From Deltaproteobacteria bacterium (GTDB taxonomy: Bacteria > Desulfobacterota > DSM-4660 > Desulfatiglandales > Desulfatiglandaceae), in contig JAOZOW010000006.1 in NCBI GenBank assembly GCA_029933075.1, forward strand, positions 1,080 through 65,079: a stretch of DNA of 64,000 nucleotides, written 5' to 3'. Each line of letters begins with the position of its first letter. Position 1 is the stretch's first letter. Below the pieces are notes generated by a model. The model was given only the letters and a program-made list of their open reading frames with translations, was not told the origin of the DNA and ran no database searches. The translations under genes and the position numbers were made by a program. This document shows positions 16,844 to 44,361 of this stretch, piece after piece.

Positions 16844-17260
16844 CTACGACTTTTTCTGGTGACACTGATTGCACTTTTTGAAAGGCCCGGTTTTCTTTCC
16901 CGCCTTTCCAAGTGCCTTGTGGCAGTTCTTGCAATTCCTGTGGTAGGCGTTTTGCAGCTTCATCACCTTGCCCTCTTTTTTCTTGGGGTTGTGGCATGAA
17001 CTGCACTTCTTGACCGGATCGCCTTCCTTCCATACGTTCTTTCCGCCTTCATAATGATGATGGCAGTCAGTACAGGCGAGTTTGTATTCTTCATGGTGCT
17101 TCTTATGGCTGAACTTGACAGGTCCCTTTTTATCCTTCTTGTACCCCTCATTCTGTATCATGATTTCATTGGGCACATCAGCGGCAGTCAAAACACCCAC
17201 ACTCACAAAAACCAAACCAACAAAAAGGGCCAGTAACAGGGTCGCGAATTTTTTGTTCAT
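16844..17260 (-). CDS. Periplasmic tetraheme cytochrome c3
   Basis: Signal peptide MNKKFATLLLALFVGLVFVSVGVLTA, four CxxCH motifs (CTDCH, CSSCH, CKNCH, CNQCH) and Lys-rich composition; 138 aa. Confidence 0.9.
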   Translation of the reverse strand: MNKKFATLLLALFVGLVFVSVGVLTAADVPNEIMIQNEGYKKDKKGPVKFSHKKHHEEYKLACTDCHHHYEGGKNVWKEGDPVKKCSSCHNPKKKEGKVMKLQNAYHRNCKNCHKALGKAGKKTGPFKKCNQCHQKKS

Positions 17261-17393: not shown

Positions 17394-17630
17394 TCATTCG
17401 CTCTCCGCTTCCGCCAGCTCAGATGCCATCTCGCGTAAGGTTTCCAGAGAGGCGAGTGCTTGCTCTTCATCTATCTTTTGAATGGCGAAACCCGCGTGTA
17501 CTACCACATAGTCGCCCACCTTGGCATCTTCCTGCAAAAGGAGACTCACTTCCTTCTGCGTTCCCTCCATATCGATGATCCCCATGCCGTGTTCAATTTT
17601 GATGATCTTGGCAGGTATCCCTAAGCACAT
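17394..17630 (-). CDS. hypC: Hydrogenase maturation chaperone HypC/HupF family
   Basis: Canonical MCLGIPAKII N-terminus at ATG 17630; 78 aa. Overlaps the protease gene by 38 nt. Confidence 0.85.
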   Translation of the reverse strand: MCLGIPAKIIKIEHGMGIIDMEGTQKEVSLLLQEDAKVGDYVVVHAGFAIQKIDEEQALASLETLREMASELAEAESE

Positions 17631-18135
17631 GGTTTTCCGCTCCTTTGAGACGGTACCTGACGTCAAGGCGCTCAAGTTCTTTCAGGACGAGGGCAATGAT
17701 ATCCTCCATCCTTTGTTTTATAGGTAATGTAAGTTCAAGCCCGACGGTTTCGATGTCTTTGGGTTCTACACCCAATATAACAGTTTCCGGCACCTTATCA
17801 AGGGCCTGGCACAGGGTGAGGGCCTCAAGGAGATCCACCTGGTGCAAGGAGTTCTTTGCCAGGATGCGTTTGGGTATGGCTTCTCCTTCGATGCGGTAAA
17901 GGTCTCCCGGTTTGCCCTTGTTTCTAATGGCGTCCACAACAATGAGGTGATCCGCCTCGGAGATGGTCCCCAAGAGATTCAGGCCAAGGACTCCCCCGTC
18001 TTCAAGGGACACATTCTCAGGAAACTCGTATCTGGCCTTCAACTCTTCAATGACACGCACACCGAAGCCCTCATCGGTGAACAGGATATTGCCGACACCC
18101 AGCACGGTGATCCTTGCTTGGTCGTTAATTTCCAT
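17593..18135 (-). CDS. NiFe hydrogenase large-subunit C-terminal maturation endopeptidase (HybD/HynC family)
   Basis: ITVLGVGNILFTDEGFGVRV motif with later HQVD and GVEP motifs. Start chosen at MEINDQ (18135). Confidence 0.85.
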   Translation of the reverse strand: MEINDQARITVLGVGNILFTDEGFGVRVIEELKARYEFPENVSLEDGGVLGLNLLGTISEADHLIVVDAIRNKGKPGDLYRIEGEAIPKRILAKNSLHQVDLLEALTLCQALDKVPETVILGVEPKDIETVGLELTLPIKQRMEDIIALVLKELERLDVRYRLKGAENHVLRDTCQDHQN

Positions 18136-18177
18136 AATATTCCTTAAACCAGTAAAGAAGAACAGGGGCATCCAATC

Positions 18178-18234: not shown

Positions 18235-19875
18235 CTATACGGCCTTTACTTTATAGACCTGGTTGGAATCAGGATCTATTACATGCACTCCACAGGCAAT
18301 ACAGGGATCGAAGGAATGGACCGTTCGCAGGATCTCCACAGGACGCTTCGGATCTGCCACAGGTGTTCCGATCAAGGATTCTTCTACCGGTCCCAGCTTC
18401 CCTTCGGCATCTCTGGGACACAGATTCCAAGTGGAAGGCACCACGTACTGGTAGTTGGCAATCTTCTTGTTTTCGATCCGAATCCAGTGACCCAGTGATC
18501 CCCTGGCCACGTCATTGAGCCCTACACCCATTCCGCTCTTTGGCATGGTCCAAGGCGTATAGGTTGCTGTGTTGCCCTTTTTCAGGTTACCCACCAGTTC
18601 CATGACCCAGCCTTCCATGGCATTGCCGATCGCCACCGTCTCTATACAACGGGCTGCGGTCCTGCCCAATGTAGAGAAAAGGGCGGTCACGGGGATGCTC
18701 AGTTTGGTTGCCACGGTATTCACGAGGTCCTTGATCTCCTTCTTGCCCCATGCATAGGCCACAAGCACCCTGGCAAGAGGGCCTACCTCACAGGGCGCAC
18801 CTTCGTAGCGCGGTGCCTTGAGCCAGGAGTATTTGCCGTTAGTATCGTAATCCCCGTGTTGCGGCTTGGTTTCCCCATTGAAGGGATGTCTGTCTGTCTT
18901 GCCTTCATACCAGGAATGGGCTACATGTTCCGTGACCGCTTCATGGTTCGCCATCTTGACCCCCTTGAGGTCGCGGTTCAGGATCACACCCCTCGGCATG
19001 AATAGGCTTTCCGGTTCCTTTTCCGATTCGGGAAGATCTCCCCAGGCAAGGAAGTTGGTCGTCCCGCCGATTGCCCCCCAGTCCTTGTAAAAGGAGGCCA
19101 CCGCCAGGATATCCGGCAGGTAGACATTCTTGACAAAATCCTGGGTCTCTTTCCAGAGGTAGAGAAATTCCGCAATGCGATCCGGCGTCAGATCTTTTAC
19201 GCAGGTGACACCGCCTACCACAAAGCTCTGTAGGTGCGGATTCTTGCCGCCGAATATTGCGTGCATCCTTGCCGCTTTGGCCTGGAGGCGCAGGGCCTCG
19301 ATGTAATGGGCCGTTGCCATGAGGTTGGCCTCAGGCGGCAGTTTATATGCAGGGTGGCCCCAGTACGCGTTGTTGAAGGGACCGAGCTGGCCGCTGTCAA
19401 CAAAGGTTTTGAGGCGCTGCTGGACGTTTTTGAAATAGACAGCCCCGCCCCAGGGCGCATTGCTCACATTGTCCGCCAATGCAGCCGTCTTTTTGGGATC
19501 GGCCTTTAGGGCGCTTACCACATCCACCCAGTCCAGGGCGTGTAGGTGGTAGAAGTGGACAATATGGTCGTGCTGGAATTGGGCTCCATGCATCAGGTTC
19601 CTGATTATACGGGCGTTGTCAGGAATCTTTACCCCTACCGCGTCTTCGACTGCCCTCACCGAGGACAGGTAATGAACCATCGTTCAGACGCCTCATGTGC
19701 GCTGGGTGAAAAGCGGTGCGTCCCGGGGGTCACGCCCTTTCAAGATGAGCTCGATGCCCCGGAACATCTGTCCCGAGCTCCAGGCATTCACCACTTTGCC
19801 TCCGGACACCTCCACCTCAATTCTCAGGTGTCCTTCTATCCTTGTAATTGGGTCTATCATTATTTTCTTCGCCAT
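18235..19875 (-). CDS. Periplasmic [NiFe] hydrogenase large subunit with two in-frame UGA (putative Sec) codons in the N-terminal Ni-binding motif
   Basis: ORFs 19693..19875 and 18235..19680 are in the same frame. Read-through gives ...RDPRDAPLFTQRT-TGA(19695-19693)-GV-TGA(19686-19684)-TMVHYLSSVRAVEDAVGVKIPDNARIIRNLM, which matches R-x-C-G-x-C-x-x-x-H. C-terminus is HSFDPCIACGVH plus a 15-aa cleavable extension. Total 546 codons. Confidence 0.85.
19650..19668 (-). promoter_or_regulatory. Candidate SECIS hairpin serving the hydrogenase UGA codons
   Basis: mRNA CUGUCCU-CGGUG-AGGGCAG: 7-bp stem with one G-U pair and a GGU-containing loop. It starts 15 nt after the second UGA and 24 nt after the first. 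Confidence 0.45.
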
Positions 19876-19935
19876 TTTCTCCCCTCTCTTTTACTAAGGT
19901 GATTTCATTGACTCAAGATCAGGTGACTCGCCTTT

Positions 19936-20880
19936 CTATCCACTTTCCTGGAAGAATGGCGACATCTTGTCCCAGAAGTCGGGCTCGCTGCATCCTATGC
20001 AGGGATGCCCTGCCTGAATAGGAAAGCTGGTTCCATCATTGAATTTTGCGATGGGACAGTTGTTGTAAGTGTCCGGTCCCTTGCACCCCATCTTGTAGAG
20101 GCAATAACCATTTGCCGCCTCTTCGGAGCCGAACTCCTCCACAAACTCATCGTTCTCATAGTGGGATCTTCTCGGACACTGATCGTGAATCGATTTCCCG
20201 TAGGCGAAGAGTGGTCTCCCAAGGTCATCGCACTCGGGCAGTTTCCCCAGGAGCAGGTAATTGACAACAGTTCCGACCAGGTTGATCGGATTGGGAGGGC
20301 ATCCTGGGATGTTGACCGTTTTGATGCCCAGTGCATCGCCGACGCCTTTGTATCCGCCTGGATTTGGTTTGGCCGCCTGTACGCCGCCGTATGAGGAACA
20401 GGTTCCCAGACAAACCACGGCAGCTGCTTTAGGGCAAACTTCCTTGGCGATTTCAAGGAATGTTCGGCCGCCGATTTTCCCGTAAGCGCCGCCATATTTC
20501 GTGGCAATGGCGCCTTCAACCACACAGATGAATTTGCCGTTGTACTTTTCCACAGCGGCTTTCAGATTCTCCTCCATCTGCTGGCCAGCGGCCGCAAAAA
20601 TGGTTTCGAGGTATTCAATGGAGAGGATCTCCAGGACCAGTTCGTCAATCCATGGATACATGGACCTCAAAACCGCCTCGGTACAGCCCGTGCATTCCGC
20701 AAAGTGAAGCCAGACTACGGGCGGCCTCTGCTTGGGCGCTGCGAAGACCTCTGCCACCTTGGGGACGAATGACGAAGAGAGTCCCATTGTCGCTGTAAGC
20801 ATACCGCAGTACTTCATGAAATCCCTTCGTGAGATCCCCTTTTCCGATAACCTTTTGTAAAAATCTTTTGCCTCCCTCAT
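19936..20880 (-). CDS. Periplasmic [NiFe] hydrogenase small subunit (Tat signal, no C-terminal membrane anchor)
   Basis: MREAKDFYKRLSEKGISRRDFMKYCG twin-arginine signal, WLHFAECTGCTEA proximal-cluster motif and GHPCIGCSEPDFWD distal motif. AGGAGG RBS before ATG 20880. Confidence 0.92.
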   Translation of the reverse strand: MREAKDFYKRLSEKGISRRDFMKYCGMLTATMGLSSSFVPKVAEVFAAPKQRPPVVWLHFAECTGCTEAVLRSMYPWIDELVLEILSIEYLETIFAAAGQQMEENLKAAVEKYNGKFICVVEGAIATKYGGAYGKIGGRTFLEIAKEVCPKAAAVVCLGTCSSYGGVQAAKPNPGGYKGVGDALGIKTVNIPGCPPNPINLVGTVVNYLLLGKLPECDDLGRPLFAYGKSIHDQCPRRSHYENDEFVEEFGSEEAANGYCLYKMGCKGPDTYNNCPIAKFNDGTSFPIQAGHPCIGCSEPDFWDKMSPFFQESG

Positions 20881-21059
20881 TGGCACCTCCTGATGCTGGT
20901 TAACAAAAGCCCTCCTTCCCAAACTTCTTCCGGTTTCCGTGCATATGATTAAAAAATTTAAGCACTGTTTGTCAATCTTTTTTTGCAAAAAATATTGAGA
21001 AAAGGCCAACTTGGGTGATAAAAGAGTTGAAAGCGTCCGAATGGGAGTCATTTGACACG

Positions 21060-22691
21060 ATGGCTGCGAAAAAAGTCCTGCTCCTTTATACAGACAGGTA
21101 TTATCTGGTCAAACAGGTATATCCATTCGGTCTGGACCTGATTGCCCATCACCTGAGACGCTCCGGGCATGAAGCGAGCGTGGAGTACCCTTTTCTTCCC
21201 GAAAAGAATATGGAAGCGAACCTGGTTAGCATACTGGAGCGAACCGAGCCTGATATTGTGGGCATCGGAATCCGAAACCTGGACACATGCATGTCATGCG
21301 AAGAATATGGCGACTTAGAGGGGAAGGATTACAGGACTTTCTTTTTTCTGCCCCATGTGAAGGCGGTGGTGGATGGCATAAAGAAACATGCGCCCGGCGT
21401 GCCAGTGATTGCCGGAGGCGGGGCCTTCAGCGTTTGTCCTGTGGACATAATGGAGTATCTGGATATTGACTACGGCGTTGTAGGGGAAGGGGAGGAGCCG
21501 CTTAAGCGGTTTGCCGATGCCTTTCCTGACAGGGGGAAAATCTCCGAGGTTCCAAATCTCGTATTCCGCTCCGACAAAGGCCATGTGGTGAACCCTAAGC
21601 GGAAATATGATTTTAAGGATTATCCGCTGCTCGGCGAGAGGGATCGTAAGTTCGATCATGGGTTTGAGATGTCAGGGATCCCCGTGCAGACGAAAAGGGG
21701 CTGCAATCAGAGATGCAGCTACTGCGTGGAGCCTCTGATTGAGGGGCAGCGATATATTTTCAGGGAAGTAGAAGAGGTGGTGGGGGAGTTGAAGCAGATC
21801 TCTCGGGTTCATGACAATGCCACTGCCGTTTTCTTTGTGGATACGGAATTTAACCTGCCTGATTTGACCTACTGTTCCCAACTCATTAAGCGGATTCTCG
21901 AAGAGGGCATGCACCAGAGGTTTCGATTTTCTTCTCAATTTTTGCCCAGGCCCTTTGAAGCCGATTTTGCAAAACTGTTGGCCGAGGCGGGTTTTTCGAT
22001 TGTGCTCACCTGTGACAGCTTTTCAGACGAGGTTCTCGAAAGAAATGGGGCTTCATATCGCATGGCCGATATCATCAAGGCACTGGAGCTTTGCGAAGCA
22101 CATGGCGTAAGCTGTACAGTGGCCATGATCTTTGGCCTGCCGGGGGAAACCCGTGCAAGCATTGACCGCAGTCTTGAACAGATGCGGAGGTATGCGCCCG
22201 GACCCTTGAGGCGATATGAATATACAGTGGGGGGGCGAATATACAAGGGGACGGCGCTGTGCCGGATTGCCGGGCAGGAGGGGGCCGGAGAACACCTCTA
22301 CGGCCGATGGTCCGAAGGATTTCTGGAGCCCTGTTATTATTGCGCCCCAGAGAGCCCATTGAGGCTGAAATCATACATCGATAATGCTCTGGGCTATTCC
22401 GTGGCCTATGAAAACCTTTTCGACGAGACACGGTTCCAGACCTTGGCACTCAGCTACCTGGCAGATCAGGGGAGATGGGCTGATGCGATTCCCAGGTTTA
22501 TGGATGCCCAGTTGAGTGTCAAGAGCAATGTCTATCAATATTTTTTTCAACGATTAGCAGACACAGGAAGGATTGATGAGGCTGCAGAGATCTCCTTCAG
22601 GCTGCTGGATGCCATTGAGGGAAGCAATCAGGGAGCAAGATACGGGGAAGAGGCGGAACTTGCCAAGTTCTACTTGAGCCGTATCAAGTAA
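21060..22691 (+). CDS. B12-binding-domain radical SAM enzyme, function unknown
   Basis: N-terminal Rossmann-like B12-binding region (KKVLLLYTD...IVGIGIRNL), radical SAM motif GCNQRCSYC and a helical C-terminal extension. Start chosen at ATG 21060. Confidence 0.8.
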   Translation: MAAKKVLLLYTDRYYLVKQVYPFGLDLIAHHLRRSGHEASVEYPFLPEKNMEANLVSILERTEPDIVGIGIRNLDTCMSCEEYGDLEGKDYRTFFFLPHVKAVVDGIKKHAPGVPVIAGGGAFSVCPVDIMEYLDIDYGVVGEGEEPLKRFADAFPDRGKISEVPNLVFRSDKGHVVNPKRKYDFKDYPLLGERDRKFDHGFEMSGIPVQTKRGCNQRCSYCVEPLIEGQRYIFREVEEVVGELKQISRVHDNATAVFFVDTEFNLPDLTYCSQLIKRILEEGMHQRFRFSSQFLPRPFEADFAKLLAEAGFSIVLTCDSFSDEVLERNGASYRMADIIKALELCEAHGVSCTVAMIFGLPGETRASIDRSLEQMRRYAPGPLRRYEYTVGGRIYKGTALCRIAGQEGAGEHLYGRWSEGFLEPCYYCAPESPLRLKSYIDNALGYSVAYENLFDETRFQTLALSYLADQGRWADAIPRFMDAQLSVKSNVYQYFFQRLADTGRIDEAAEISFRLLDAIEGSNQGARYGEEAELAKFYLSRIK

Positions 22692-24497: not shown

Positions 24498-27400
24498 CTA
24501 TGCCTTTTTTATGTTGACCATAAAGGCCTTGGTTTCAGGGATCCTGGTGTTAGGATCGCCCGTTGACGGAGTGAGCAGGTTGGCTGAATCGCCGCCATCC
24601 TTCGGGTAGACCCATCCGAAGTGCCATGGCAGCCCCACCTGGTGAACCACGCTTCCCTGTATCTTGAAGGGACGGAAGCGATGGGTCACAATCGCTTTCG
24701 CCTTCACTTTGCCGCGGGCGGATTCCACGATCACCCATTCACCATTATTAATGCCTTTGAGCTTTGCCAGTTCATGGCTCAACTCCACAAAGAGCTGTGG
24801 CTGGGCTTCCAAGAGCCAGGGTTGCCACCTGGTCATGACCCCCGTCTGCCAGTGCTCGCAAACCCGGTATGTGGTCGCCACAAAAGGATACCGGGGATCG
24901 CATGTCCTGTACACATCCATGTCGGTCCCATATTTGGGCGCCGTGGGGTTGACGAGCTGGCTGGACATGAGGTTCTTTTCCACCGGGCATTCCATGGGCT
25001 CATAGTGCTCGGGGAAAGGCCCGTCCGCCCTGCCCGGGCCGAACACGTGGGCATGGCCCTCCGGCTTCATGATAAAGGGGTACTTGGTCTTGGGGTTGGG
25101 GGTCCCATCAGGCTTCAGCATAGGAGGCCACCCGCCGTCTGGCACGTCCCCGACCCATCCGCCTTTTCCACCTTTGGCGTTGGGATCCCAGCGGATAACC
25201 GGATGCTCCGGATCCCAGGGCTTGCCATATTTATCCACCGATGCGCGATTATAGATAATGCGCCGATTCACGGGCCAGCACCAGGCCCATTCAAGATTGA
25301 GACCGATACCGGACTTCTCCCTTTTCCTTCGAGCCGACATGTTCCCCTTATTTGTGTACGAGTTACAGTAGAGCCAGTTGCCGCTGCTGGTGGAACCATC
25401 GGCCTGGAGATAGGCAAAACTGGGAACCAGGTCTCCCTTCTTAAAGGATTTGCCCTTGACCGTGACATTTTTCAGAAAATAGCCGTTGATTTCCTTGGCC
25501 ACCTTGTGCGGGTCATATGCCCCTTTGGTGGTGTAGTCCCACTTCAGGTTAAGGATAGGCTCAGGAAACACAGCGTTTTTGTCTCTGCGGTACAGGTATT
25601 TGACCTTCTTCATCAGGTCCATGATGATGTCGCCATCCGACTTTGCATCCCCTGGCGGTTCCGCAGCCTTGTAACGCCACTGCATCCAGCGACCGCTGTT
25701 GGTGATGGACCCCTCTTTTTCCAGCGACACGGCGCAGGGAAGGAAGAAGACCTCGGTTTTGATCTTCTTGGGATTCATGCCGGGACCCTTCCAGAACCAG
25801 CCCGTCTCGTTGGGGAAGATGTTTACGTTGACCATCCAGTCCAGCTTGGCCAGGGCCTTTCTGTTTTTATCGGCATTGGCCCCTGAGGCTGCAGGATTCT
25901 GGCCCCATGCAAAGAAGCCGGTGAATTCCCCCCTGTACATGGCGTCAAAGAGATCAAGCCAAGAATAGATCTTGCCGTCATCCAGCTTGGGCAGCCAGCT
26001 ATAGCCAAAGTCATTCGCCTTGGTCGCCTTGTCTCCGAAGAATGATTTGAGAAGGCTTACCGAGTACTTGGGGTAATTTCCCCACCAGTTGGCGCTCAGG
26101 GGATCGTGGGTCACGGGCGTGTATTTCTTATTGTAAGCGGCAAGCGTGGCCTGGGATGCCCTGGGCGTTTTCAGGTAGCCGGGCCAGATGTGGAAGAGGA
26201 TGCAATGGTCCGTTGAGCCCTGGACATTGGACTCGCCCCTGAGGGCGTTTACCCCGCCTCCGGCCACGCCCATGTTGCCGAGCAGCAATTGGATCATGGC
26301 CATGGTGCGGATGTTCTGGACTCCCACTGTGTGCTGGGTCCATCCCATGGCGTACATGATCGTACCGGCCTTGCCCTTCTTCCCGGTGGCCGAGTACATC
26401 TCGTAGACCTTTTTGAGGTCTTCTTTCGGTGTCCCCGTGATGGCCGAGACCGTATCGAGATCATAGCGGCTATAATGTTTTTTCAGTAATTGAAAGACAC
26501 AACGGGGGTCCTGCAAGCTCCGATCCTTCTTTGGAATCCCTTTTGAATCTTTCACAAAGGCCCACATCTTTTTGTTGTATTTGTGGGTCTTTGGGTCATA
26601 ACCGGAGAAAAGACCGTCCTTGAAATCATAGGTCTCCGCCACGATAAACGGGGCGTTCGTATACTCAGCCACGTACTCTTTGAAGTACTTGTCGTTTTCG
26701 ATGATGTACTTGATCATACCCCCTAAGAAGGCGATATCCGTGCCTGATCTCAGATAGGTGTAGAAGTCGGCCTTGGAGGAGGTGCGGGTGAATCGGGGAT
26801 CAACGCTGATCAGTTTGGCCCCCCGCTTCATGGCCTCGTTCACCCATTTGAAGGAAATGGGGTGATTTTCGGCCGCATTGGAGCCCATAATAAGGATGCA
26901 ATCGCTGTTCCGGATATCGATCCAGTGATTGGTCATTGCGCCGCGTCCGAACGACTCTGCCAGAGCCGCAACCGTGGCGCTGTGTCAGATACGGGCCTGA
27001 TGCTCTATATAGACCAGACCGAGGGCCCTCATCATTGCCTGGATCAGCCAGCACTCCTCATTGTCCAGAGCGGCACTTCCCACTTCGGCAATGCCGTTAG
27101 TGCGGTTGACCACCTGGCCTTTGTCATTCTTCCGGGTAAAGCTGGCATCGCGGCTCTTCTTGATCCTTTTTGCTATGGTGAACAGGGCCCAGTCCCAGGA
27201 TACCTTTTGCCAATGGCTGCTGTAAGGCGCCCGATAAAGAGGCGTCGTTACGCGATTTTCATTATTGACGAGTTGACTCAGTGCAGCGCCTTTGGCACAG
27301 AGGGCCCCCTCATTTATAGGATGATCGGGGTCTCCCTCAACGTTGATGATCTTTCCTGCTCCTGCCTTCCCGGTATGTGCGATGACCCCGCAGCCAACGG

Positions 27401-28074: not shown

Positions 28075-28470
28075 ATGTCAGAGGAGATAAGGGGCGCCGT
28101 ACTGGTGGTGGGAGGGGGCATTGCTGGGATGCAATCCGCTCTGGACCTGGCTGATTCCGGGTATTACGTGTACCTGCTTGAAAAAAGCCCTTCCATTGGT
28201 GGAGGAATGGCACAATTGGATAAGACCTTTCCCACCAATGATTGCGCCATGTGAATCATTTCTCCAAAACTGGTCGAGGTCGGCCGGCACAGAAACATTG
28301 AGTTGATCACTTATGCAGATCTTGAGTCCGTGGAGGGGTCTGCCGGAGATTTCAGGGTCCGGATCAAGAAACGTGCGCGCAGCATTGATATGAATCTGTG
28401 CACCGGATGCGGCAATTGTATCGAAAGCTGTCCTGTGACAAACAGGCCCGTTTCCGCTTCACCGCCATAA
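28075..28470 (+). CDS. HdrA N-terminal fragment (FAD-binding half of the thioredoxin-reductase-like domain plus first Fe-S motif of the inserted ferredoxin domain) with Sec
   Basis: GGGAGG RBS. Sequence [29 protein letters not shown]...[21 protein letters not shown](28252-28254)[23 protein letters not shown]...[13 protein letters not shown], with stop at 28468-28470. The TGA sits at the DCxxC position of HdrA. Confidence 0.75.
28270..28287 (+). promoter_or_regulatory. Candidate SECIS hairpin for the hdrA fragment
   Basis: CUGGUC-GAGGUC-GGCCGG: 6-bp stem including two G-U pairs and a GGU-containing loop, starting 15 nt after the UGA. Confidence 0.4.
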
Positions 28471-28483
28471 TCCTGAATTATCC

Positions 28484-29026
28484 ATGTTTGAGCCATTAGG
28501 GGGCGGAGGAGAGTTCTCCCCCCGGATAAGAGAATGGGACGACATGCAAGCACCTTTTGAGATCCGATTGGAAAAGATCGAAGAGATAATTGAAAAGTAT
28601 CATGGAGATCGCGAGGCCCTGCTCATGATCTTGCAGGATATCGCCGACATCCACAATTATGTGCCTCCCGAGGTGGTACCCCTCCTTGTGGAGAGACTGG
28701 GCGTCAGGCCGAGCCTGATTTACAGCGTGGCTACTTTTTATAAGACCATCAGCCTGGAGCCCAGGGGAAAGTATGTCATCAACGTCTGTACTGGTACCGC
28801 CTGCCATGTTAGAGGGGCTGACAAGATCATGGAGGCATTAAAAGAAAAGCTCGGGATCGATGAAGGTGAGACCACGGAGGATCTGAAATTCACCCTGGAG
28901 GCCGTGCGGTGCGTGGGCTGCTGCGCCTCCGGGCCGGTGATCACCGTAAATCGGGAAACGCACGGCGGGCTTGACCGCTCCAGTGCCCTGAAGATCATTG
29001 AATCGTATGAGAAGGAGATCTCCTGA
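28484..29026 (+). CDS. NuoE/HoxE-like [2Fe-2S] thioredoxin-fold subunit
   Basis: CTGTACHVRGA...CVGCCASGPV cysteine pattern. The start is uncertain: ATG 28484 or ATG 28544. Confidence 0.85.
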   Translation: MFEPLGGGGEFSPRIREWDDMQAPFEIRLEKIEEIIEKYHGDREALLMILQDIADIHNYVPPEVVPLLVERLGVRPSLIYSVATFYKTISLEPRGKYVINVCTGTACHVRGADKIMEALKEKLGIDEGETTEDLKFTLEAVRCVGCCASGPVITVNRETHGGLDRSSALKIIESYEKEIS

Positions 29027-34274: not shown

Positions 34275-34706
34275 ATGCACGACTGGCAACCTAAAATCAC
34301 CGCTTTTTTGTGTCACTGGTGTAGTTACGGTGCGGCGGATCTGGCTGGTGTCAGCCGCCTTCAATATCCGCCAAATTTCAGAATAATCCGGGTGCCGTGC
34401 TCCGGCCGAGTGAGCCCCAAATTCATCCTGGCCGCCTTCCGTCACGGGGCCGACGGCGTTTGGGTGAGCGGGTGACATCCGGGCGACTGTCATTACCTGG
34501 AAGGTAATTATTATGCCAGGCGAAAATTTGTGCTTTTGAAAAATCTCTTGGAGCACATTGGCCTGGAACCGGGAAGGCTTCATTTCTCATGGATTTCTTC
34601 TGCCGAGGCCGCCAAGTTTGTGGAAGTTGCCAATGAGGTTAACCAAGTGGTGGAGGAACTGGGACCTGCGAGATTCCTCGTGAAACGAAAAGCCCGGGTG
34701 GCATGA
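34275..34706 (+). CDS. mvhD: MvhD/FlxD-like [2Fe-2S] protein with Sec
   Basis: [18 protein letters not shown]...VPCSGRV...[12 protein letters not shown](34473-34475)[14 protein letters not shown]. The TGA replaces the Cys of the G-C-x-x-G-x-C-H-Y motif. Same frame throughout; stop at 34704-34706 overlaps the next start (ATGA). Confidence 0.8.
34492..34508 (+). promoter_or_regulatory. Candidate SECIS hairpin for mvhD
   Basis: AUUACCU-GGA-AGGUAAU: perfect 7-bp stem (or 6 bp with a UGGAA loop), starting 16 nt after the UGA. Confidence 0.45.
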
Positions 34707-39591: not shown

Positions 39592-42500
39592 TCAGCTGGC
39601 CTCTAAAGATGGTGCTATCTTGCCGTAAACCTCATCAAATTTTTTTGCAATAAGGTTTTCAAATTCCTTTCCAAAAAACCGCCGATTTTGCTGCAGGTAC
39701 CACTTGATGCTTTCCCAGTGGTCCCGCAGTTCTTCTCTGTCCAGAACTGTTTTGAGTATTTCCTCTATTTCCCGGAGCTTCTGTCTCTTCAGGTTGTCTT
39801 TTCTAAATTCGTAAAGGTCGTTCAACCTGTGCCTTTGATCCTCGGAAAAACCCAGGTCAAAGGATCGCTCCATGAGGTCAGTGAAAAGGTTGTGGAGCTC
39901 TTCAAAGTCTTCAATGAGCGCCATCTGCTTTTCCGTCTGACCGAGCATGGATTCGATGATCTCTGTCAGCCTCTTTTCAAATGCCCGTTCCAATTGCAGT
40001 TCGTAGTCTTCCGTGTAATAGGGGTGCTTTCTCAGTGAGCGGAGACTGTAGTGAAAATAATTTTTCAGCTGCTCCACATTGTTGATAGTGCCCATATAAG
40101 TCACTTTCTGAGGGATGTTGATTCGATCTCGGAAATCCAGCGAAAGCACGTGAGGAAATGGTTCTTTCCTAAGCAAAAGGCCTGTCTTGGCTTTAAAGAA
40201 ATGATCCACCTGCCGCTTGTCTTCCCATAATTTCTTCATGGACAGTGGGTTGAGATATGCATTGATTGCCTCGTAGCGTTTTTCTATTTTCCTGCTCAGC
40301 TCCAGGAAATTGATGCAGACAGTGGCATGGTTTTGCCTGAATTTCTTGCTCCCGAGCAGTCCCACCAGGATCAGCTTGAGGCGGTTTTCATAAGTCAGGT
40401 ATCCGCTGGTCTTTTCATACCCGTAGATCCTCACCTTGTCCCCTATTAGTCGGTCCAGGATGAAATGTCTGGTCTCCTCGGCCAGTTGCTGGAGCGTGTT
40501 GTAGATACGGAGGGCCTCGAACAGCTCCTTTTCAAACATTGCATATCCGATGCTGGAGAGCTTTCTTTCTTTGTAGATATACTTAATGGGGACATTTAGC
40601 ATGTGACGTGCCAGATCCCGAAACTCCACATACCGGATGCCGTGGAGCCTGAACAGCCGTTCCATTGCGAAGATCATCCTCCCCGCTCGCAATGACTCTT
40701 TTCGGTCCACTTTTTCCCACCGGGGGGAGGCGAGGTAGTCGGCAGGCTTTGATCCTTTCGGCAGGCCTTTTTTCTGATAGGTGCTCAGGGCATGGAACAG
40801 TTTTCCCCTCTGGTGGAAGAGGGTTTCCAACTGGGCATTCAGAGTGGTTTCGCCATCAATGATTTTGTGACACATGGCCCTGATTGCAAATAGTCGTTCG
40901 GCCAGGTCCTCGCGAATGAGATCCTCCCTTAGGGCGGAGAGCATGATGAATGAAAAAACGAAAAAGGCATCGAACAGCTCCTTGTTGGCGGGTGCGAGGG
41001 TCTCCTGGATGGCGGAAAAGGAGAGCTCTCCTCGAACAATGTGGTGTACAAGGCCATGGTGTCTGATAAGAAACAGGAGGCACTCTTCCCCTCCGGGCTC
41101 CAGGTGGTATTTTTCATGTATCCTTTCCTTTTCCACGAAAAATGCCCCTGCCTGGGCAAGGTCAGCGGGATTGATCTCTTTTTGATATTTGTCCCGGAGG
41201 GTGGTTGACCTGCCCACATCCTGGAATATGAACGATTTTATAAAGGCATCAAATAGGGGGCCGTTTTGTTTGAGGGTCTCAAGGATTCTTTCAAGTTCCT
41301 CGATCTGGTCTTCACTTGCCCCCACTATGCCCGCTGCCATGGGGCCGAATTCTTTCCGGGCCAGCATGTGCAGGAACCGGGTGTCCTGGAAGCTCTCCCT
41401 GTCATGCCTGATCAGGGCCTGTAGTTTCTTTGTGCTGGCGATAATATAGTGAATGACAGGGGATTTCAGGTACAGATGAGGCGAGAGATCAAGATCTTGC
41501 AAGCCTTTTAATTCGGGAAGGATGAAATCCAGAAGGGAGGGCGCATGTTGATGAAGGAGATCGAGGTCTGTATATAATGCTTCGGGCTTGAAAATCACGT
41601 CCAGAAAATTATCCCGCAACTGTTTTCTCAGCTCCCCCGTCCTTTGAAACCATTGGGTCTGCCTGGCAGGCAGTTTCAAGGATGGATCTTTTTGCTGAGC
41701 AATCCTGATATGTCCCTGATAAAAGTCCTCCAGGTTAGAGAAGAGGGCCTCGAATTTCTTTAGATCCTCAAGCGGTATTTCAGATATCCGGCACCCGGCC
41801 AAGCGCTTTGAGAGCGATTCAAGCTGATCCATGTTCCGGTCCAGGTCCACGCAGTCGATCTCCAGCGCCTGGTTTTCCGCGTCAACAGTGAGCTTGAAGC
41901 CGGTTCCCGCAATAAAGGCCGTCCCGTCTTCATGGAGTTGTCTGCCGAGCTGTTTCAGGATGGCGTGGTCAAGGTAATGGATATTTATGGCTCTGGCCTC
42001 CTCTTCCACTTTTTTTACCCAGGCAGGCACATCCTCAGGCTCCACACGGGCCAGGATGGGATTGAAGTTGATGATATCCCCGCGGGAGATGGTCACGGCA
42101 ATCCAAAGCAATATGAATACCAACTCACTGTCCATCCGTTCGAACAGGTGGACGGTGCCATGGAACTCTATGTCCAAAAACTTCCTGTAAAATGCGGGCA
42201 ATTGAAGGGGGTCGGATCGCAAGTAGAGATTTTCAAACTGTTCTATCGTGTCAACGAGCTTTATCACGTTGTTGATCCGCGACAGTTTGTGCTCATCATA
42301 ATCCGCAAGGGCCTCCTTTTCCATCCGCCCCTTGTGCCTCAGATCGACCCAATTGTCCAGGAACTCAAAATGGTTTATCATCTTCAGGAGTTTTCGCGTA
42401 ACCCTGTTGTGGATCCCGCCGACGGAGATGATCTTCTCGTCCAGAAGGCGGTCCCAATCAAGTTCCCGGATGGTGACGACTTTCACTGCGGATTCATAAA

Positions 42501-44361
42501 GGTCAAAGAGCTCTGTAAGTTCTTCCTGACTCAGTTGGGAGCCTCCGGCGGCCTCCTTTTCAGCCATAGTCATCAATCTGCAGTAACGGAGCAGGTTGAT
42601 GCCCTGCCGGGCATCAAATGTTCGGGCCAGGTCCGAGACCGGCTTAAGGGCTTTCTCGTTCATTTTTCCCGAGATGATTCGCCCGAGGGGCGTATGGCCC
42701 AGAACAATGTACAGGATCTCCTTTAACTCTTCATGGCTGAACCCGAAAAAGGGCAGGATCTCCAGGTTTTCAATCACCTTGGTATTTGTGCCTTCGATAT
42801 TGTCAGGGTTTAGATGGTCTCTTACTCTTTTCAGCCTCCCGGTTTTGGACATCAATCGGATTACGTGATTGAAGGCGGGAAATCTCCTGTTCTTGTTTTC
42901 AAGGGGTTGCCTCAACCGGTCAATAAGGGTTTTGGGAAGATCATCGTGATCGCCCTCTTTCAGTCTGTTAAGTACGTCGAGGGTCTGGATGACATAATCG
43001 AAGGAGTCCCTGTAATCGGAAACCAGGGCAACAGGGCATCCCATGAGCTTTGATTCCTTGGCCTCGTTTTCCAGTTCCTCGAAGGTTGTTCTCAAGGGCT
43101 TTTTCTGCCCGAGATAGATGAGCATGTAGGACGGTTCATACCCATTAAAAGAAAATCTTTTTCTCCACCCCTTCTTTACGTAGGGAGGGACGAGGGGTTT
43201 CAGAAATATCATGTCAAAATAGATGGAAAGGAGCCTGGACCAGTTCTTTTCCTGCTCGCTCAAAAGGGGCCAGTCGGCAAGCTCATCGTTTCTATAAGGA
43301 AGTCTGTTCATTTCCCTGAGGGAGAGATCGGAAAGATCTCTACCTTGGAGCAGTTTTTCAATGACTTCATGTTCCACGTAGAGCCCGTCCAGGTACTTTT
43401 GAAAGTCGAAGGTGTTTACTTCAACGGCATGGTCTTTGATCCTGTACTTTTTCTTGGTTTTGAATATGTGGCTGAAAAGGAGAAAATTCTTTTCTTCTTC
43501 CTCGGACCTGAAAGCGATCTTTGTTACGCGGTTTGATCTTGGAACGTGGTGATTTGCGATGATAAACAGTTCGCCCTCCGGTTTCAACAGCCTGAAGATT
43601 TTATGGAGAAGGTAGGTGGCATATTGATCCAGGCGCTTCTTGGAAACGCCTTCCCGGGAGAGGGGGCCGAATTTTTCCATGAAAAGGATTTCATAAAGGT
43701 CCCAGGTCAACACGATCAGGTCTAGGGTTTCATTTAAAAGGCGGAGCTTTTCCACAGAGTCTATCACCAGGAAACGGTGTTCCTTGAACCTAAGAGAGAG
43801 CTCATGGGCGATAAGGTCGTCCTGGTGGGTGATAATCCCGATATCGTGGTATTCCTTGAAATATTTTTTTCTGTGGAAGCCGATGATCTTGGTAATTTCG
43901 TCAACCTTGGCTCTTATATGGGTGAGGGTGTTTGAGACCAGATGACCGGGAATGAGGTAATAGGGTTTTCCGTGGCGGGTAAATCGAATCAGTAGCCCTA
44001 TCCTCCTGTATAGATCGTTAAGGGCCCTGTAATGTGCCTTGGTATCTTCTGGATTTTCTATGCTGATGGACTGGATCAGTCTGATGTCTTCAGGGCTCAG
44101 CCTATGGTAGAATTCAAAAATTCCGAACCCGTAAGCATTTCCACCGAATCTGCTTTCCAGGTGTGCGGGGTGTTTCAGGGCGGGAAAGGTGCCTAAAGGG
44201 ATATCTCTCGGGTTGATGCCGAAGTCTTCAAACTCCTCCGGCTTGACAAATCGAAAAGAGTCCTTTTGCCAAACGGACTCTTTCGGAAAGAAGGCGATGG
44301 GATCCATCTGAGTACCAGGACCTTGATAAGTCCTACACAGAGCACCAAGCGCCCGCCTCAT
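39592..44361 (-). CDS. Giant (1589 aa) protein of unknown function with degenerate GlnD-type HD-like helical modules and an N-terminal methyltransferase-like segment
   Basis: Uninterrupted 4.77-kb ORF. FIKSFIFQDVGRS...LLFLIRHHGLVHHIVRGE resembles the GlnD HD region (hhHDIGKG...LVxHHLLM) with His replaced by Gln. DLIVLTWDL...IFRLLKPEGELFII resembles class-I SAM-MTase motifs but has no G-rich loop. The ATG directly abuts the livF stop (TAGATG). Confidence 0.75.
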   Translation of the reverse strand: MRRALGALCRTYQGPGTQMDPIAFFPKESVWQKDSFRFVKPEEFEDFGINPRDIPLGTFPALKHPAHLESRFGGNAYGFGIFEFYHRLSPEDIRLIQSISIENPEDTKAHYRALNDLYRRIGLLIRFTRHGKPYYLIPGHLVSNTLTHIRAKVDEITKIIGFHRKKYFKEYHDIGIITHQDDLIAHELSLRFKEHRFLVIDSVEKLRLLNETLDLIVLTWDLYEILFMEKFGPLSREGVSKKRLDQYATYLLHKIFRLLKPEGELFIIANHHVPRSNRVTKIAFRSEEEEKNFLLFSHIFKTKKKYRIKDHAVEVNTFDFQKYLDGLYVEHEVIEKLLQGRDLSDLSLREMNRLPYRNDELADWPLLSEQEKNWSRLLSIYFDMIFLKPLVPPYVKKGWRKRFSFNGYEPSYMLIYLGQKKPLRTTFEELENEAKESKLMGCPVALVSDYRDSFDYVIQTLDVLNRLKEGDHDDLPKTLIDRLRQPLENKNRRFPAFNHVIRLMSKTGRLKRVRDHLNPDNIEGTNTKVIENLEILPFFGFSHEELKEILYIVLGHTPLGRIISGKMNEKALKPVSDLARTFDARQGINLLRYCRLMTMAEKEAAGGSQLSQEELTELFDLYESAVKVVTIRELDWDRLLDEKIISVGGIHNRVTRKLLKMINHFEFLDNWVDLRHKGRMEKEALADYDEHKLSRINNVIKLVDTIEQFENLYLRSDPLQLPAFYRKFLDIEFHGTVHLFERMDSELVFILLWIAVTISRGDIINFNPILARVEPEDVPAWVKKVEEEARAINIHYLDHAILKQLGRQLHEDGTAFIAGTGFKLTVDAENQALEIDCVDLDRNMDQLESLSKRLAGCRISEIPLEDLKKFEALFSNLEDFYQGHIRIAQQKDPSLKLPARQTQWFQRTGELRKQLRDNFLDVIFKPEALYTDLDLLHQHAPSLLDFILPELKGLQDLDLSPHLYLKSPVIHYIIASTKKLQALIRHDRESFQDTRFLHMLARKEFGPMAAGIVGASEDQIEELERILETLKQNGPLFDAFIKSFIFQDVGRSTTLRDKYQKEINPADLAQAGAFFVEKERIHEKYHLEPGGEECLLFLIRHHGLVHHIVRGELSFSAIQETLAPANKELFDAFFVFSFIMLSALREDLIREDLAERLFAIRAMCHKIIDGETTLNAQLETLFHQRGKLFHALSTYQKKGLPKGSKPADYLASPRWEKVDRKESLRAGRMIFAMERLFRLHGIRYVEFRDLARHMLNVPIKYIYKERKLSSIGYAMFEKELFEALRIYNTLQQLAEETRHFILDRLIGDKVRIYGYEKTSGYLTYENRLKLILVGLLGSKKFRQNHATVCINFLELSRKIEKRYEAINAYLNPLSMKKLWEDKRQVDHFFKAKTGLLLRKEPFPHVLSLDFRDRINIPQKVTYMGTINNVEQLKNYFHYSLRSLRKHPYYTEDYELQLERAFEKRLTEIIESMLGQTEKQMALIEDFEELHNLFTDLMERSFDLGFSEDQRHRLNDLYEFRKDNLKRQKLREIEEILKTVLDREELRDHWESIKWYLQQNRRFFGKEFENLIAKKFDEVYGKIAPSLEAS

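What the first reader, a model, noticed from the sequence alone, without database searches (positions are those of the whole stretch)
18235..19875. NiFe hydrogenase large subunit in which BOTH cysteines of the N-terminal RxCGxC nickel motif are UGA codons, while the C-terminal motif keeps cysteine
The ORF track breaks this gene into a 60-aa piece ending ...GRDPRDAPLFTQRT and a 481-aa piece starting MVHYLSSVRAVE. Reading the minus strand across the gap gives CGC ACA TGA GGC GTC TGA ACG ATG GTT CAT, that is R-T-[UGA]-G-V-[UGA]-T-M-V-H, all in one frame. This is exactly the invariant R-x-C-G-x-C-x-x-x-H signature, with each Ni-ligating Cys replaced by UGA. Two stop codons landing by chance on precisely these two positions, with no frameshift, is very unlikely. 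The gene also sits with three other UGA-containing redox genes. In the [NiFeSe] hydrogenases I know (Desulfomicrobium baculatum, Desulfovibrio vulgaris Hys, methanococcal Vhu/Fru) the single Sec is in the C-terminal DPUxxC motif. Here that motif is DPCIACGVH, all Cys. If both UGAs are decoded as Sec, the Ni site would have two Se ligands from the N-terminal pair, one of them normally a Ni-Fe bridging ligand. I am not aware of that arrangement having been characterised.
Basis: partly seen in the sequence, partly recalled or inferred. Interest (0 to 1): 0.85.

Follow-up and report, generated by a model that had tools for sequence, protein, structure and literature searches.

The report
Hydrogenase with two selenocysteine nickel ligands
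A standard periplasmic nickel-iron hydrogenase gene of a sulfate-reducing bacterium has UGA codons in place of both N-terminal nickel-binding cysteines, followed by a conserved selenocysteine-insertion hairpin, so the enzyme very probably carries two selenium ligands, an arrangement not yet reported for this hydrogenase group and never tested biochemically.

Summary
One frame runs from ATG 19875 to TAG 18235 (minus strand). Its only two in-frame stops are TGA at 19695-19693 and 19686-19684, exactly on the two cysteines of RxCGxCxxxH. The C-terminal DPCIACGVH keeps Cys.

This is not an error. Three independent public assemblies carry the same TGA..TGA. Among 79 species-level relatives plus the window, only three states occur: C..C (38), C..U (30) and U..U (11). 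U..C never occurs, and no sequence has another in-frame stop.

An 8-bp hairpin with a GGU loop (19668-19650) follows. Its synonymous sites are frozen in all Sec-type genes but vary in Cys-type genes. The loop starts at +27 from UGA2, the same spacing as in three canonical selenoprotein genes in this window (FdhA, HdrA-like, MvhD-like). UGA1 lies 9 nt further upstream (+36).

The protein is a prototypical Group 1b Hyn enzyme, not a classical [NiFeSe] Hys.

An N-terminal CxxU was noted in two Group 1 sequences in 2011. UxxU was described in silico for Group 4 in September 2026. I found no report of UxxU in Group 1. Sec identity is inferred; Cys insertion by tRNA-ReC is not excluded.

The parts
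18235..19875 (-). hynA: [NiFe]-hydrogenase large subunit precursor, 546 aa when both UGAs are read through (Sec61, Sec64)
   Evidence: Searches show one frame. PF00374 E = 3e-225. 1h2a_L E = 4.5e-217.
19879..19889 (-). Shine-Dalgarno-like AGAGAGGGGAG just upstream of ATG 19875
   Evidence: Read directly from the sequence. It supports translation starting at 19875, not at the internal ATG 19680.
19693..19695 (-). UGA1, at the position of the terminal Ni ligand (Cys81 in DvMF, Cys76 in E. coli Hyd-1)
   Evidence: TGA at this position in 11 of 80 sequences, always together with TGA at UGA2.
19684..19686 (-). UGA2, at the position of the Ni-Fe bridging ligand (Cys84 in DvMF, Cys79 in Hyd-1)
   Evidence: TGA at this position in 41 of 80 sequences.
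19650..19668 (-). SECIS hairpin CUGUCCUC-GGU-GAGGGCAG: 8 bp including one U-G pair, apical loop GGU at 19660-19658. The loop starts at +27 from UGA2 and +36 from UGA1.
   Evidence: Folded (-10.6 kcal/mol). Third-codon-position entropy is 0.00 in 40 Sec-type genes against 0.9-1.9 bits in 32 Cys-type genes. Consensus fold.
18283..18309 (-). C-terminal Ni motif DPCIACGVH (Cys525 terminal, Cys528 bridging, His531 as the cleavage site)
   Evidence: Cys at both positions in all 75 sequences (74 loci and the window) that reach this motif.
18238..18282 (-). 15-aa C-terminal extension (VIDPDSNQVYKVKAV), expected to be removed by the maturation endopeptidase
   Evidence: Mature PDB chains end at the His aligned to residue 531. 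The cleavage itself is inferred from established [NiFe] maturation.
19936..20880 (-). hynB: small subunit with a twin-arginine signal (SRRDFMKYCG)
   Evidence: PF01058 and PF14720. TIGR00391 and TIGR01409 Tat signal. 314-aa gene call. Present upstream in 67 of 67 assessable loci.
17593..18171 (-). HyaD/HybD-type maturation endopeptidase
   Evidence: PF01750. TIGR00140 at 167 bits, above the 151.8 cutoff.
17394..17675 (-). HypC/HupF-family maturation chaperone
   Evidence: PF01455 E = 9e-27.
16844..17260 (-). Tetrahaem cytochrome c3, the likely periplasmic electron acceptor
   Evidence: PF02085 E = 9e-15. Its role as acceptor is inferred from Desulfovibrio Hyn systems.

Best explanation
hynA encodes a prototypical (Group 1b) periplasmic uptake [NiFe]-hydrogenase large subunit.

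Translation starts at AUG 19875. At UGA1 (19695-19693) and, three codons later, at UGA2 (19686-19684), SelB carrying Sec-tRNASec inserts selenocysteine. SelB is recruited by the single hairpin at 19668-19650, whose apical loop is GGU. The product is a 546-aa precursor.

Ni is then ligated by Sec61 (terminal), Sec64 (bridging to Fe), Cys525 (terminal) and Cys528 (bridging). HypC and the other Hyp proteins build the site. The adjacent HybD-type protease cuts after His531. The large subunit is exported with the Tat-signal small subunit, and electrons from H2 go to the adjacent cytochrome c3 and on to sulfate respiration (DsrMKJOP lies next door).

Shown here: the codons, their conservation, the hairpin and its nucleotide-level constraint, its canonical spacing to UGA2, and the gene family and context. 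Inferred: that the amino acid inserted is Sec at both sites, that one SECIS serves both UGAs, and the effect on catalysis.

Evolution (tentative): CxxC changed to CxxU once in a Desulfobacterales/Desulfatiglandales clade. This was followed by several reversions to Cys and a few CxxU to UxxU steps, plus an independent UxxU in a Nitrospirota-labelled genome.
For: 1. Position and frame.

2. Not an error: three independent assemblies are identical at the site.

3. Conservation: 38 C..C, 30 C..U, 11 U..U and 0 U..C among 79 loci plus the window, with no other in-frame stops. In the public protein collection, 54 of the best 120 hits to the 60-aa N-piece are fragments ending QR[T/V/I] just before UGA1, and 62 are CU-type fragments ending QRxCGx just before UGA2.

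4. SECIS constraint: codons +9 to +14 have zero third-position entropy in 40 Sec-type genes. The same codons carry 0.9-1.9 bits in 32 Cys-type genes, and the flanking codons of the Sec-type genes themselves also vary. A hairpin of dG <= -8.9 kcal/mol is present in 41/41 Sec-type against 3/38 Cys-type genes (Fisher p = 2.6e-19). L036 has a compensatory U-G to G-U change. The distant L080 builds a different stem but keeps the loop G-U in the same columns.

5. Consensus criteria: the hairpin meets the published bacterial SECIS criteria for both UGAs. These are a 3-9 nt loop, G in the first two loop positions, 16-37 nt spacing and MFE <= -7.5 kcal/mol (PMC13188914). The spacers here are 23 and 32 nt.

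6. Same-genome controls: the FdhA, HdrA-like and MvhD-like UGAs each have a hairpin whose G-rich loop starts at +26/+27, identical to UGA2.

7. UGA is a normal stop elsewhere in the window, ending 17 of 38 genes.

8. The 60 codons upstream of UGA1 are under purifying selection and contain the RIEGH motif.

9. Engineered E. coli Hyd-1 C76U and C79U are active enzymes, with 3% and 13% of native activity (PMC8020662).
Against: - No selA, selB, selC or selD lies in the 64-kb window, and no tRNA was found in the window or in 38 of the related loci.
- UGA1 lies 9 nt outside the +27 spacing that the four other Sec sites of this window share. In E. coli the UGA-to-SECIS spacing is reported to be strict (my own knowledge, not checked here).
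- tRNA-ReC, which inserts Cys at SECIS-dependent UGA, was reported to be enriched in genomes with UxxU hydrogenases, including 2 of 6 Desulfobacterota (PMC13582414).
- There is no protein-level evidence of any kind.
Confidence: 0.7

Rival explanations
1. Both UGAs are recoded through SelB and the SECIS, but one of them (most plausibly UGA1) or both receive cysteine from a tRNA-ReC (selC*). The mature enzyme would then carry one Se or none.
For: tRNA-ReC-like genes were reported in about 56% of genomes with UxxU-type Group 4 hydrogenases against about 2% of other Sec-type genomes (PMC13582414). UGA1 has non-canonical spacing for this genome.
Against: UGA1 is retained in 11 species-level sequences and in at least 54 protein clusters. 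If it merely encoded Cys, TGC or TGT would be cheaper and should replace it. No tRNA-ReC is visible here, although the window holds no tRNAs at all.
Confidence: 0.17
2. UGA1 works mainly as a selenium-responsive attenuator. Read-through is inefficient at the +36 spacing, so enzyme output is throttled when Se is scarce, perhaps with a Cys-type paralogue taking over. Chemistry at the Ni site would be a secondary matter.
For: UGA1 has non-canonical spacing. One MAG (JAZDES01) holds both a Cys-type copy (L001) and a Sec-type copy (L005). Sec/Cys isoenzyme pairs are known in Methanococcus (cited in PMC2702500).
Against: UGA2 alone already makes expression Se-dependent in the 30 CxxU genes, so a second UGA adds little regulation. 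The UGA falls precisely on a Ni ligand rather than elsewhere. This rival is compatible with the main explanation rather than exclusive of it.
Confidence: 0.08
3. The gene is a pseudogene, or the TGAs are sequencing or assembly errors.
For: Gene callers split the gene into 60-aa and 481-aa ORFs.
Against: Three independent assemblies are identical at the site. The TGAs are conserved across species with no other stops or frameshifts. The upstream piece is under purifying selection. The SECIS is constrained at the nucleotide level.
Confidence: 0.01

Closest known systems
Group 4 [NiFeSe] hydrogenases with N-terminal CXXU/UXXC/UXXU motifs (Takano et al., Front Microbiol 2026, PMC13582414; in silico only)
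   Same: Sec sits in the N-terminal Ni motif, including UXXU. The C-terminal motif is all Cys. One SECIS hairpin with a conserved loop G is shared between CXXU and UXXU forms. Sec and Cys types are interleaved in the tree, and some Cys-type relatives keep SECIS-like hairpins.
   Different: Those are membrane-bound, energy-converting Group 4 enzymes, and that study excluded Groups 1-3. This one is a soluble periplasmic Group 1b Hyn. No UXXC form was seen here (0 of 80). Sec types are common here (41 of 80 sequences) against about 0.2% in Group 4.
Group 1 sequences with an N-terminal CXXU motif (Baltazar et al. 2011, as cited in PMC13582414; alluded to in PMC8020662)
   Same: Same hydrogenase group, and the same second position (the bridging ligand) as Sec. 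This most likely corresponds to the C..U state found here in 30 species-level loci.
   Different: Only two sequences were reported, each with one Sec. The window gene has Sec codons at both positions. I could not read the 2011 review itself.
Classical periplasmic [NiFeSe] hydrogenase Hys (Desulfomicrobium baculatum 1cc1, D. vulgaris Hildenborough 2wpn/5jsh; Group 1a)
   Same: Periplasmic Ni-Fe enzyme of sulfate reducers with a Sec ligand to Ni, a Tat-exported small subunit and cytochrome c3 as partner.
   Different: In Hys the Sec is the terminal ligand of the C-terminal DPUxxC motif; here that residue is Cys525. The sequence is far from Hys: about 350 bits to Hys structures against about 725 bits to Hyn structures. 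NF045518 HysA scores 433, below its 780 cutoff, and the NiFeSe small-subunit model scores 246, below 470.
Prototypical Group 1b [NiFe] hydrogenase Hyn (D. vulgaris Miyazaki F 1h2a/4u9h, D. gigas 2frv, D. fructosovorans 1yrq)
   Same: End-to-end homology (E about 1e-217 to 1e-202). Same motifs, C-terminal extension, small subunit, protease and cytochrome c3 context.
   Different: Those enzymes have four Cys ligands. This one has UGA at the two N-terminal ones, plus a SECIS.
Engineered E. coli Hyd-1 variants C76U and C79U (Evans et al., PNAS 2021, PMC8020662)
   Same: Single Sec substitutions at exactly the two positions recoded here. Both variants assemble and oxidise H2: C79U at 13% and C76U at 3% of native activity.
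   Different: Those are artificial single substitutions made by UAG suppression in an O2-tolerant Group 1d enzyme. No double variant and no natural enzyme has been studied.
Other predicted bacterial UxxU selenoproteins (Prx-like thiol:disulfide oxidoreductase, mercuric-reductase-like metal-binding protein, FmdB-family protein; PMC13188914)
   Same: Two UGAs 9 nt apart, presumably served by one downstream SECIS.
   Different: Those are redox or metal-binding CxxC proteins, not a Ni-Fe catalytic site. None has been verified experimentally according to that review's table.

Membership tests
[NiFe]-hydrogenase large subunit, Group 1 periplasmic uptake type | Full-length match to the Ni-dependent hydrogenase large-subunit family | tested here: met
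   PF00374 residues 39-531, model positions 1-508 of 508, E = 3e-225.
[NiFe]-hydrogenase large subunit, Group 1 periplasmic uptake type | N-terminal RxCGxCxxxH and C-terminal DPCxxCxxH Ni-binding motifs, plus a cleavable C-terminal extension | tested here: met
   R-T-U-G-V-U-T-M-V-H with UGA in place of both Cys. DPCIACGVH followed by 15 residues.
[NiFe]-hydrogenase large subunit, Group 1 periplasmic uptake type | Adjacent small subunit with a twin-arginine signal, and a HyaD/HybD-type endopeptidase | tested here: met
   TIGR00391 at 415 bits and TIGR01409 Tat signal. TIGR00140 at 167 bits, above the 151.8 cutoff.
Group 1b 'prototypical' Hyn subgroup | Closest to Desulfovibrio Hyn enzymes; soluble, with cytochrome c3 as partner; no membrane cytochrome b or Isp genes in the operon | tested here: met
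   The best PDB hits are DvMF, D. fructosovorans, D. gigas and D. desulfuricans Hyn. A cytochrome c3 gene lies in the cluster. The HydDB classifier was not available, so the subgroup label rests on similarity.
Classical [NiFeSe] hydrogenase (Hys, Group 1a) | Sec as the first residue of the C-terminal motif (DPUxxC) | tested here: not met
   The motif is DPCIACGVH. All 75 sequences that reach this motif have Cys.
Classical [NiFeSe] hydrogenase (Hys, Group 1a) | Passes the HysA and NiFeSe small-subunit family models | tested here: not met
   NF045518 scores 432.7, below 780. NF045520 scores 245.7, below 470.
Bacterial SelB/SECIS-dependent selenoprotein gene | In-frame UGA aligned with Cys in homologues | tested here: met
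   Both UGAs align with TGC/TGT in 38 Cys-type loci.
Bacterial SelB/SECIS-dependent selenoprotein gene | Downstream hairpin meeting the bSECIS consensus: 3-9 nt loop, G in the first two loop positions, 16-37 nt from the UGA, MFE <= -7.5 kcal/mol | tested here: met
   Loop GGU, 8-bp stem, -10.6 kcal/mol, 23 nt from UGA2 and 32 nt from UGA1. Criteria taken from PMC13188914.
Bacterial SelB/SECIS-dependent selenoprotein gene | selA, selB, selC and selD present in the same genome | not testable with these tools
   None in the 64-kb window. Indirect support comes from three canonical selenoprotein genes with SECIS elements in the same window.
Bacterial SelB/SECIS-dependent selenoprotein gene | Selenium actually incorporated at the UGA positions | not testable with these tools
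   Needs mass spectrometry, 75Se labelling or Se K-edge spectroscopy.
N-terminal UXXU-type [NiFeSe] hydrogenases as defined by Takano et al. 2026 | UXXU in the N-terminal Ni motif with an all-Cys C-terminal motif | tested here: met
N-terminal UXXU-type [NiFeSe] hydrogenases as defined by Takano et al. 2026 | Membership of Group 4 (energy-converting, NuoD-like, multisubunit membrane complex) | tested here: not met
   Group 1 by the PDB and NCBIfam hits. NuoD models match only residues 14-108, at about 30 bits.

The most novel reading that the evidence does not exclude
A natural member of the best-studied hydrogenase group (Group 1b, alignable end to end with the D. vulgaris Miyazaki F and D. 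gigas crystal enzymes) has a Ni site with two selenium ligands, one terminal and one bridging Ni and Fe. Both are inserted from one SECIS, although the first UGA lies 9 nt outside the otherwise fixed UGA-to-loop spacing of this genome. That would mean a bacterial SelB/SECIS complex can serve two spacings and reload within three codons. The UxxU form is widespread in sulfate-reducer metagenomes but is invisible in protein databases, because gene callers split it.
Probability: 0.6. Interest if true: 0.75.

Novelty: new variant of a known kind. Interest (0 to 1): 0.62.

Why it matters
Selenium in [NiFeSe] hydrogenases is credited with high H2-production rates and O2 tolerance. Every natural enzyme studied so far has a single Sec at the C-terminal terminal position.

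A natural enzyme with Se at the two N-terminal positions would allow a direct comparison with existing work. It sits in the same structural family as the crystallographic workhorses and next to Cys-type and single-Sec relatives that are 80-87% identical. It can be set against the engineered Hyd-1 C76U and C79U variants, and it would test what a bridging Se does to the Ni-Fe site.

It also gives a clean natural system for an open recoding question: how one bacterial SECIS serves two UGAs 9 nt apart. The controls are built in, because CxxU and CxxC alleles carry the same hairpin.

Practically, dozens of public gene calls (54 UU-type and 62 CU-type fragments among the best 120 hits alone) are mis-annotated as 60-63-aa and about 481-aa 'proteins'. 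Hydrogenase surveys based on predicted proteins therefore under-count these enzymes.

Tried and rejected
- Two metagenome-contig scans for the UGA-plus-SECIS pattern returned nothing. I had written 15 N instead of 13 N between GTCTGAAC and the hairpin. The same mis-spaced pattern finds nothing in the held loci, while the corrected pattern finds 28 of them.
- Rfam at gathering thresholds gave no hit in the window, so no curated family covers this SECIS.
- ARAGORN found no tRNA or tRNA-Sec in the window, and only tRNA-Ser genes in 38 of the related loci.
- The window's MFE fold shows a long-range lower stem (GCGUCU pairing with AGACGC, enclosing UGA2) and a mini-hairpin UGAAC-GAUG-GUUCA. Neither is supported by the alignment consensus, and neither is conserved in other U..U genes. 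I rejected both as features.
- I searched for residues co-varying with the Sec state. Only K4, M66 and F218 are strictly tied to U..U, and some close CC and CU relatives share them, so they look clade-linked. No adaptive signature can be claimed.
- Literature searches for any report of UxxU or N-terminal Sec in Group 1 Hyn found only PMC13582414 and its citation of Baltazar 2011. The 2011 review is not in the library.
- The listing of cluster members gave no accession or organism name for the window's source.
- The NJ tree has no support values. I use it only qualitatively.
Full report
**1. The observation**

On the minus strand the window reads CGC ACA TGA GGC GTC TGA ACG ATG GTT CAT. UGA1 is at 19695-19693 and UGA2 at 19686-19684. 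One frame runs from ATG 19875, which is preceded by an AGAGAGGGGAG Shine-Dalgarno-like stretch, to TAG 18237-18235. These two TGAs are its only stops.

With U written as C, the 546-aa protein matches PF00374 over the whole model (E = 3e-225). It aligns end to end with the Desulfovibrio vulgaris Miyazaki F large subunit (1h2a_L, E = 4.5e-217). The two UGAs fall on Cys81 (terminal Ni ligand) and Cys84 (Ni-Fe bridging ligand) of that enzyme. These correspond to Cys76 and Cys79 of E. coli Hyd-1 (numbering from PMC8020662). The C-terminal motif DPCIACGVH (18309-18283) is all Cys and is followed by a 15-residue extension.

**2. It is not an error or a pseudogene**

- The exact 481-aa product is encoded on three independently assembled contigs (Logan SRR21545388, JGI 3300014913, ENA ERZ27227317). 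Each differs from the window gene by one nucleotide elsewhere, and each carries the same TGA GGC GTC TGA.
- A scan of one genome per species returned 80 related loci, and the N-terminal motif could be read in 79 of them. Counting the window with those 79, only three states occur: C..C (38), C..U (30) and U..U (11, of which 10 are loci and one is the window). U..C was never seen. No sequence has any other in-frame stop. Every sequence that reaches the C-terminal motif has Cys there.
- One U..U locus (L080, labelled Nitrospirae) is only 56% identical to the window protein.
- The 60 codons upstream of UGA1 are under strong purifying selection. dN is 0.02-0.13 with dS saturated, and dN/dS is 0.02-0.04 where it can be estimated.
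- UGA is the commonest ordinary stop codon in the window, ending 17 of 38 genes. A reassigned code is therefore excluded and the recoding must be local.

**3. The recoding signal**

Fifteen nucleotides after UGA2 lies CUGUCCUC-GGU-GAGGGCAG (19668-19650). It is an 8-bp hairpin with a 3-nt GGU loop and folds at -10.6 kcal/mol.

*Nucleotide-level constraint.* In 40 Sec-type genes (C..U and U..U, leaving out the distant L080), the third-codon-position entropy is exactly 0.00 bits for the six codons forming the hairpin (codons +9 to +14). The flanking codons in those same genes carry 0.9-1.9 bits. The same six codons in 32 Cys-type relatives also carry 0.9-1.9 bits.

*Presence of the hairpin.* A hairpin of dG <= -8.9 kcal/mol is present in 41/41 Sec-type genes and 3/38 Cys-type genes (Fisher p = 2.6e-19). 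This p value is not corrected for relatedness.

*Covariation.* L036 has a compensatory U-G to G-U change. L080 builds a different stem (GCCUC/GAGGC plus extensions) but keeps the loop G-U in the same alignment columns.

*Consensus criteria.* The hairpin satisfies all four published consensus criteria for bacterial SECIS elements, for both UGAs. The criteria are a 3-9 nt loop, G in the first two loop positions, 16-37 nt spacing and MFE <= -7.5 kcal/mol (PMC13188914). The spacers here are 23 and 32 nt.

*Fossil hairpins.* Two Cys-type genes (L001, L026) retain a perfect hairpin. These look like recent Sec-to-Cys reversions.

**4. An internal control from the same genome**

The window holds three further in-frame UGA genes of well-known selenoprotein families:

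| Gene | UGA position | Motif |
|---|---|---|
| Periplasmic FdhA | 26987-26985 (-) | ARI-U-HS |
| HdrA-like | 28252-28254 (+) | FPTNDCAM-U |
| MvhD-like | 34473-34475 (+) | SG-U-HPGDCHY |

Each has a hairpin whose G-rich apical loop (GGC, AGGU, GGA) begins at +26/+27 counted from the U of the UGA. This is exactly the geometry of hynA UGA2. UGA2 is therefore a textbook Sec site for this organism.

UGA1 is 9 nt further upstream, so the loop is at +36. There is no second hairpin positioned for it, and the small UGAAC/GUUCA hairpin in the window is not conserved in other U..U genes. The simplest reading is that one SECIS serves both codons. The authors of the Group 4 study proposed the same for their UXXU genes. 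How this is achieved is unknown.

Two sequence features accompany UGA1 and remain unexplained:
- The Gly codon after it is GGC in 11/11 U..U genes against 2/30 C..U genes (Fisher p = 2.5e-8, uncorrected for phylogeny).
- The preceding residue is Thr, Val or Ile, never the Ser that is usual in the other states.

**5. What kind of hydrogenase it is**

The best structural relatives are the prototypical Group 1b Hyn enzymes of Desulfovibrio, at about 680-725 bits. Classical [NiFeSe] Hys enzymes reach only about 350 bits. The HysA and NiFeSe small-subunit models are well below their cutoffs.

The operon is hynB (small subunit with Tat signal), hynA, a HybD-type protease, hypC and a tetrahaem cytochrome c3. 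hynB lies upstream in all 67 assessable loci. DsrMKJOP lies on one side of the operon and fdhE-fdhB-fdhA on the other. The host is therefore a sulfate-reducing Desulfobacterota. The nearest relatives are Desulfobacterales and Desulfatiglandales MAGs at 87% identity or less.

From my own knowledge, not tested here: the small subunit keeps the GCKGP proline, which goes with a medial [3Fe-4S] cluster in standard Hyn.

**6. Distribution and evolution**

A neighbour-joining tree places nearly all C..U genes in one Desulfobacterales/Desulfatiglandales clade that shares the identical hairpin. Cys-type genes are scattered inside this clade, and U..U genes occur in several places, plus L080 far outside. 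The tree has no support values. I read it as one origin of CxxU, repeated reversions to Cys, and a few CxxU to UxxU steps. The absence of UxxC fits that order.

In the 5.8-billion-protein collection the 120 best full-length hits are all Cys-type. In contrast, the 120 best hits to the 60-aa N-terminal piece are almost all fragments. Of these, 54 end QR[T/V/I] just before UGA1 and 62 end QRxCGx just before UGA2. The U..U form is thus common in environmental data but is systematically split by gene callers.

**7. Comparison with the literature**

Reviews of prokaryotic selenoproteins list hydrogenase large subunits only with the C-terminal UxxC (PMC13188914, PMC9312934).

Takano et al. (PMC13582414, September 2026) describe N-terminal CXXU, UXXC and UXXU motifs in Group 4 hydrogenases, in silico only. 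They state that Baltazar et al. 2011 had noted two Group 1 sequences and one Group 3 sequence with N-terminal CXXU. They call UXXC and UXXU previously unrecognised, and they excluded Groups 1-3 from their survey. Evans et al. 2021 showed that Hyd-1 C79U and C76U are active, at 13% and 3% of native activity.

I found no report of UxxU in Group 1, nor of the scale of CxxU in Desulfobacterales Hyn. I could not read the 2011 review.

**8. Verdict**

Two points remain inferred. The first is that the residue inserted is Sec at both sites. Takano et al. raised tRNA-ReC, which inserts Cys at SECIS-dependent UGAs, for UXXU genomes, and it cannot be excluded here because the window holds no tRNA or sel genes. 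The second is that a single SECIS serves both codons.

I give 0.70 to the explanation with Sec at both sites. I give about 0.17 to Cys at one or both sites, 0.08 to a mainly regulatory role for UGA1, and about 0.01 to artefact or pseudogene.

It is a new variant of a known kind: the N-terminal UxxU pattern, so far described only in silico for Group 4, appearing in the prototypical Group 1b enzyme. It comes with an unusually clean set of natural controls.

Noticed in passing
window 26985-26987 (-), 28252-28254 (+), 34473-34475 (+): Three further in-frame UGAs in known selenoprotein families: FdhA (ARI-U-HS), an HdrA-like gene ([10 protein letters not shown]) and an MvhD-like gene (SG-U-HPGDCHY). 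All have a hairpin whose G-rich loop starts at +26/+27 from the UGA, so this genome uses a very uniform SECIS geometry.
   Followed up: partly
window 19687-19698 (-), and the same site in L002, L008, L012, L015, L017, L018, L033, L062, L067, L080: In all 11 U..U genes the Gly codon after UGA1 is GGC (2 of 30 in C..U genes), and the residue before UGA1 is Thr, Val or Ile, never Ser. This codon context specific to the first UGA is unexplained.
   Followed up: partly
L001:2218-2300 and L026:3174-3260: Two Cys-type genes (TGC at both positions) keep a perfect copy of the SECIS hairpin CTGTCCTCGGTGAGGGCAG. These look like recent Sec-to-Cys reversions with a fossil SECIS.
   Followed up: partly
L001 and L005 (both from MAG JAZDES01): One MAG carries both a Cys-type copy and a C..U-type copy of hynA (87% and 85% identical to the window protein). 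This could be a Sec/Cys isoenzyme pair or a mixed bin.
   Followed up: no
window 28075-29026 (+): The HdrA-like reading frame ends at TGA 28468-28470, and a 180-aa ORF follows in a different frame (28484-29026). This could be a second recoding site, a frameshift or simply two genes.
   Followed up: no
window 39592-44361 (-): A 1589-aa ORF with no Pfam match at E <= 0.001, lying next to a branched-chain amino-acid-type ABC transporter cluster.
   Followed up: no
window 21015-22691 (+): A B12-binding radical SAM gene sits between hynB and fdhE, divergently oriented to both. The same arrangement is seen in L081.
   Followed up: no
public protein collection, P0121-P0240: Gene callers split the Sec-type hynA genes. 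54 of the best 120 hits to the N-terminal piece are UU-type fragments and 62 are CU-type fragments. JGI names some of them 'Ni,Fe-hydrogenase I large subunit'.
   Followed up: yes
L010, L042, L051, L053, L055, L072 (about 700-1050): A conserved pair of tRNA-Ser genes (GCU and UGA anticodons) lies about 2 kb upstream of hynB in a subset of C..U loci. L048 shows only the UGA-anticodon tRNA-Ser, near its end.
   Followed up: no
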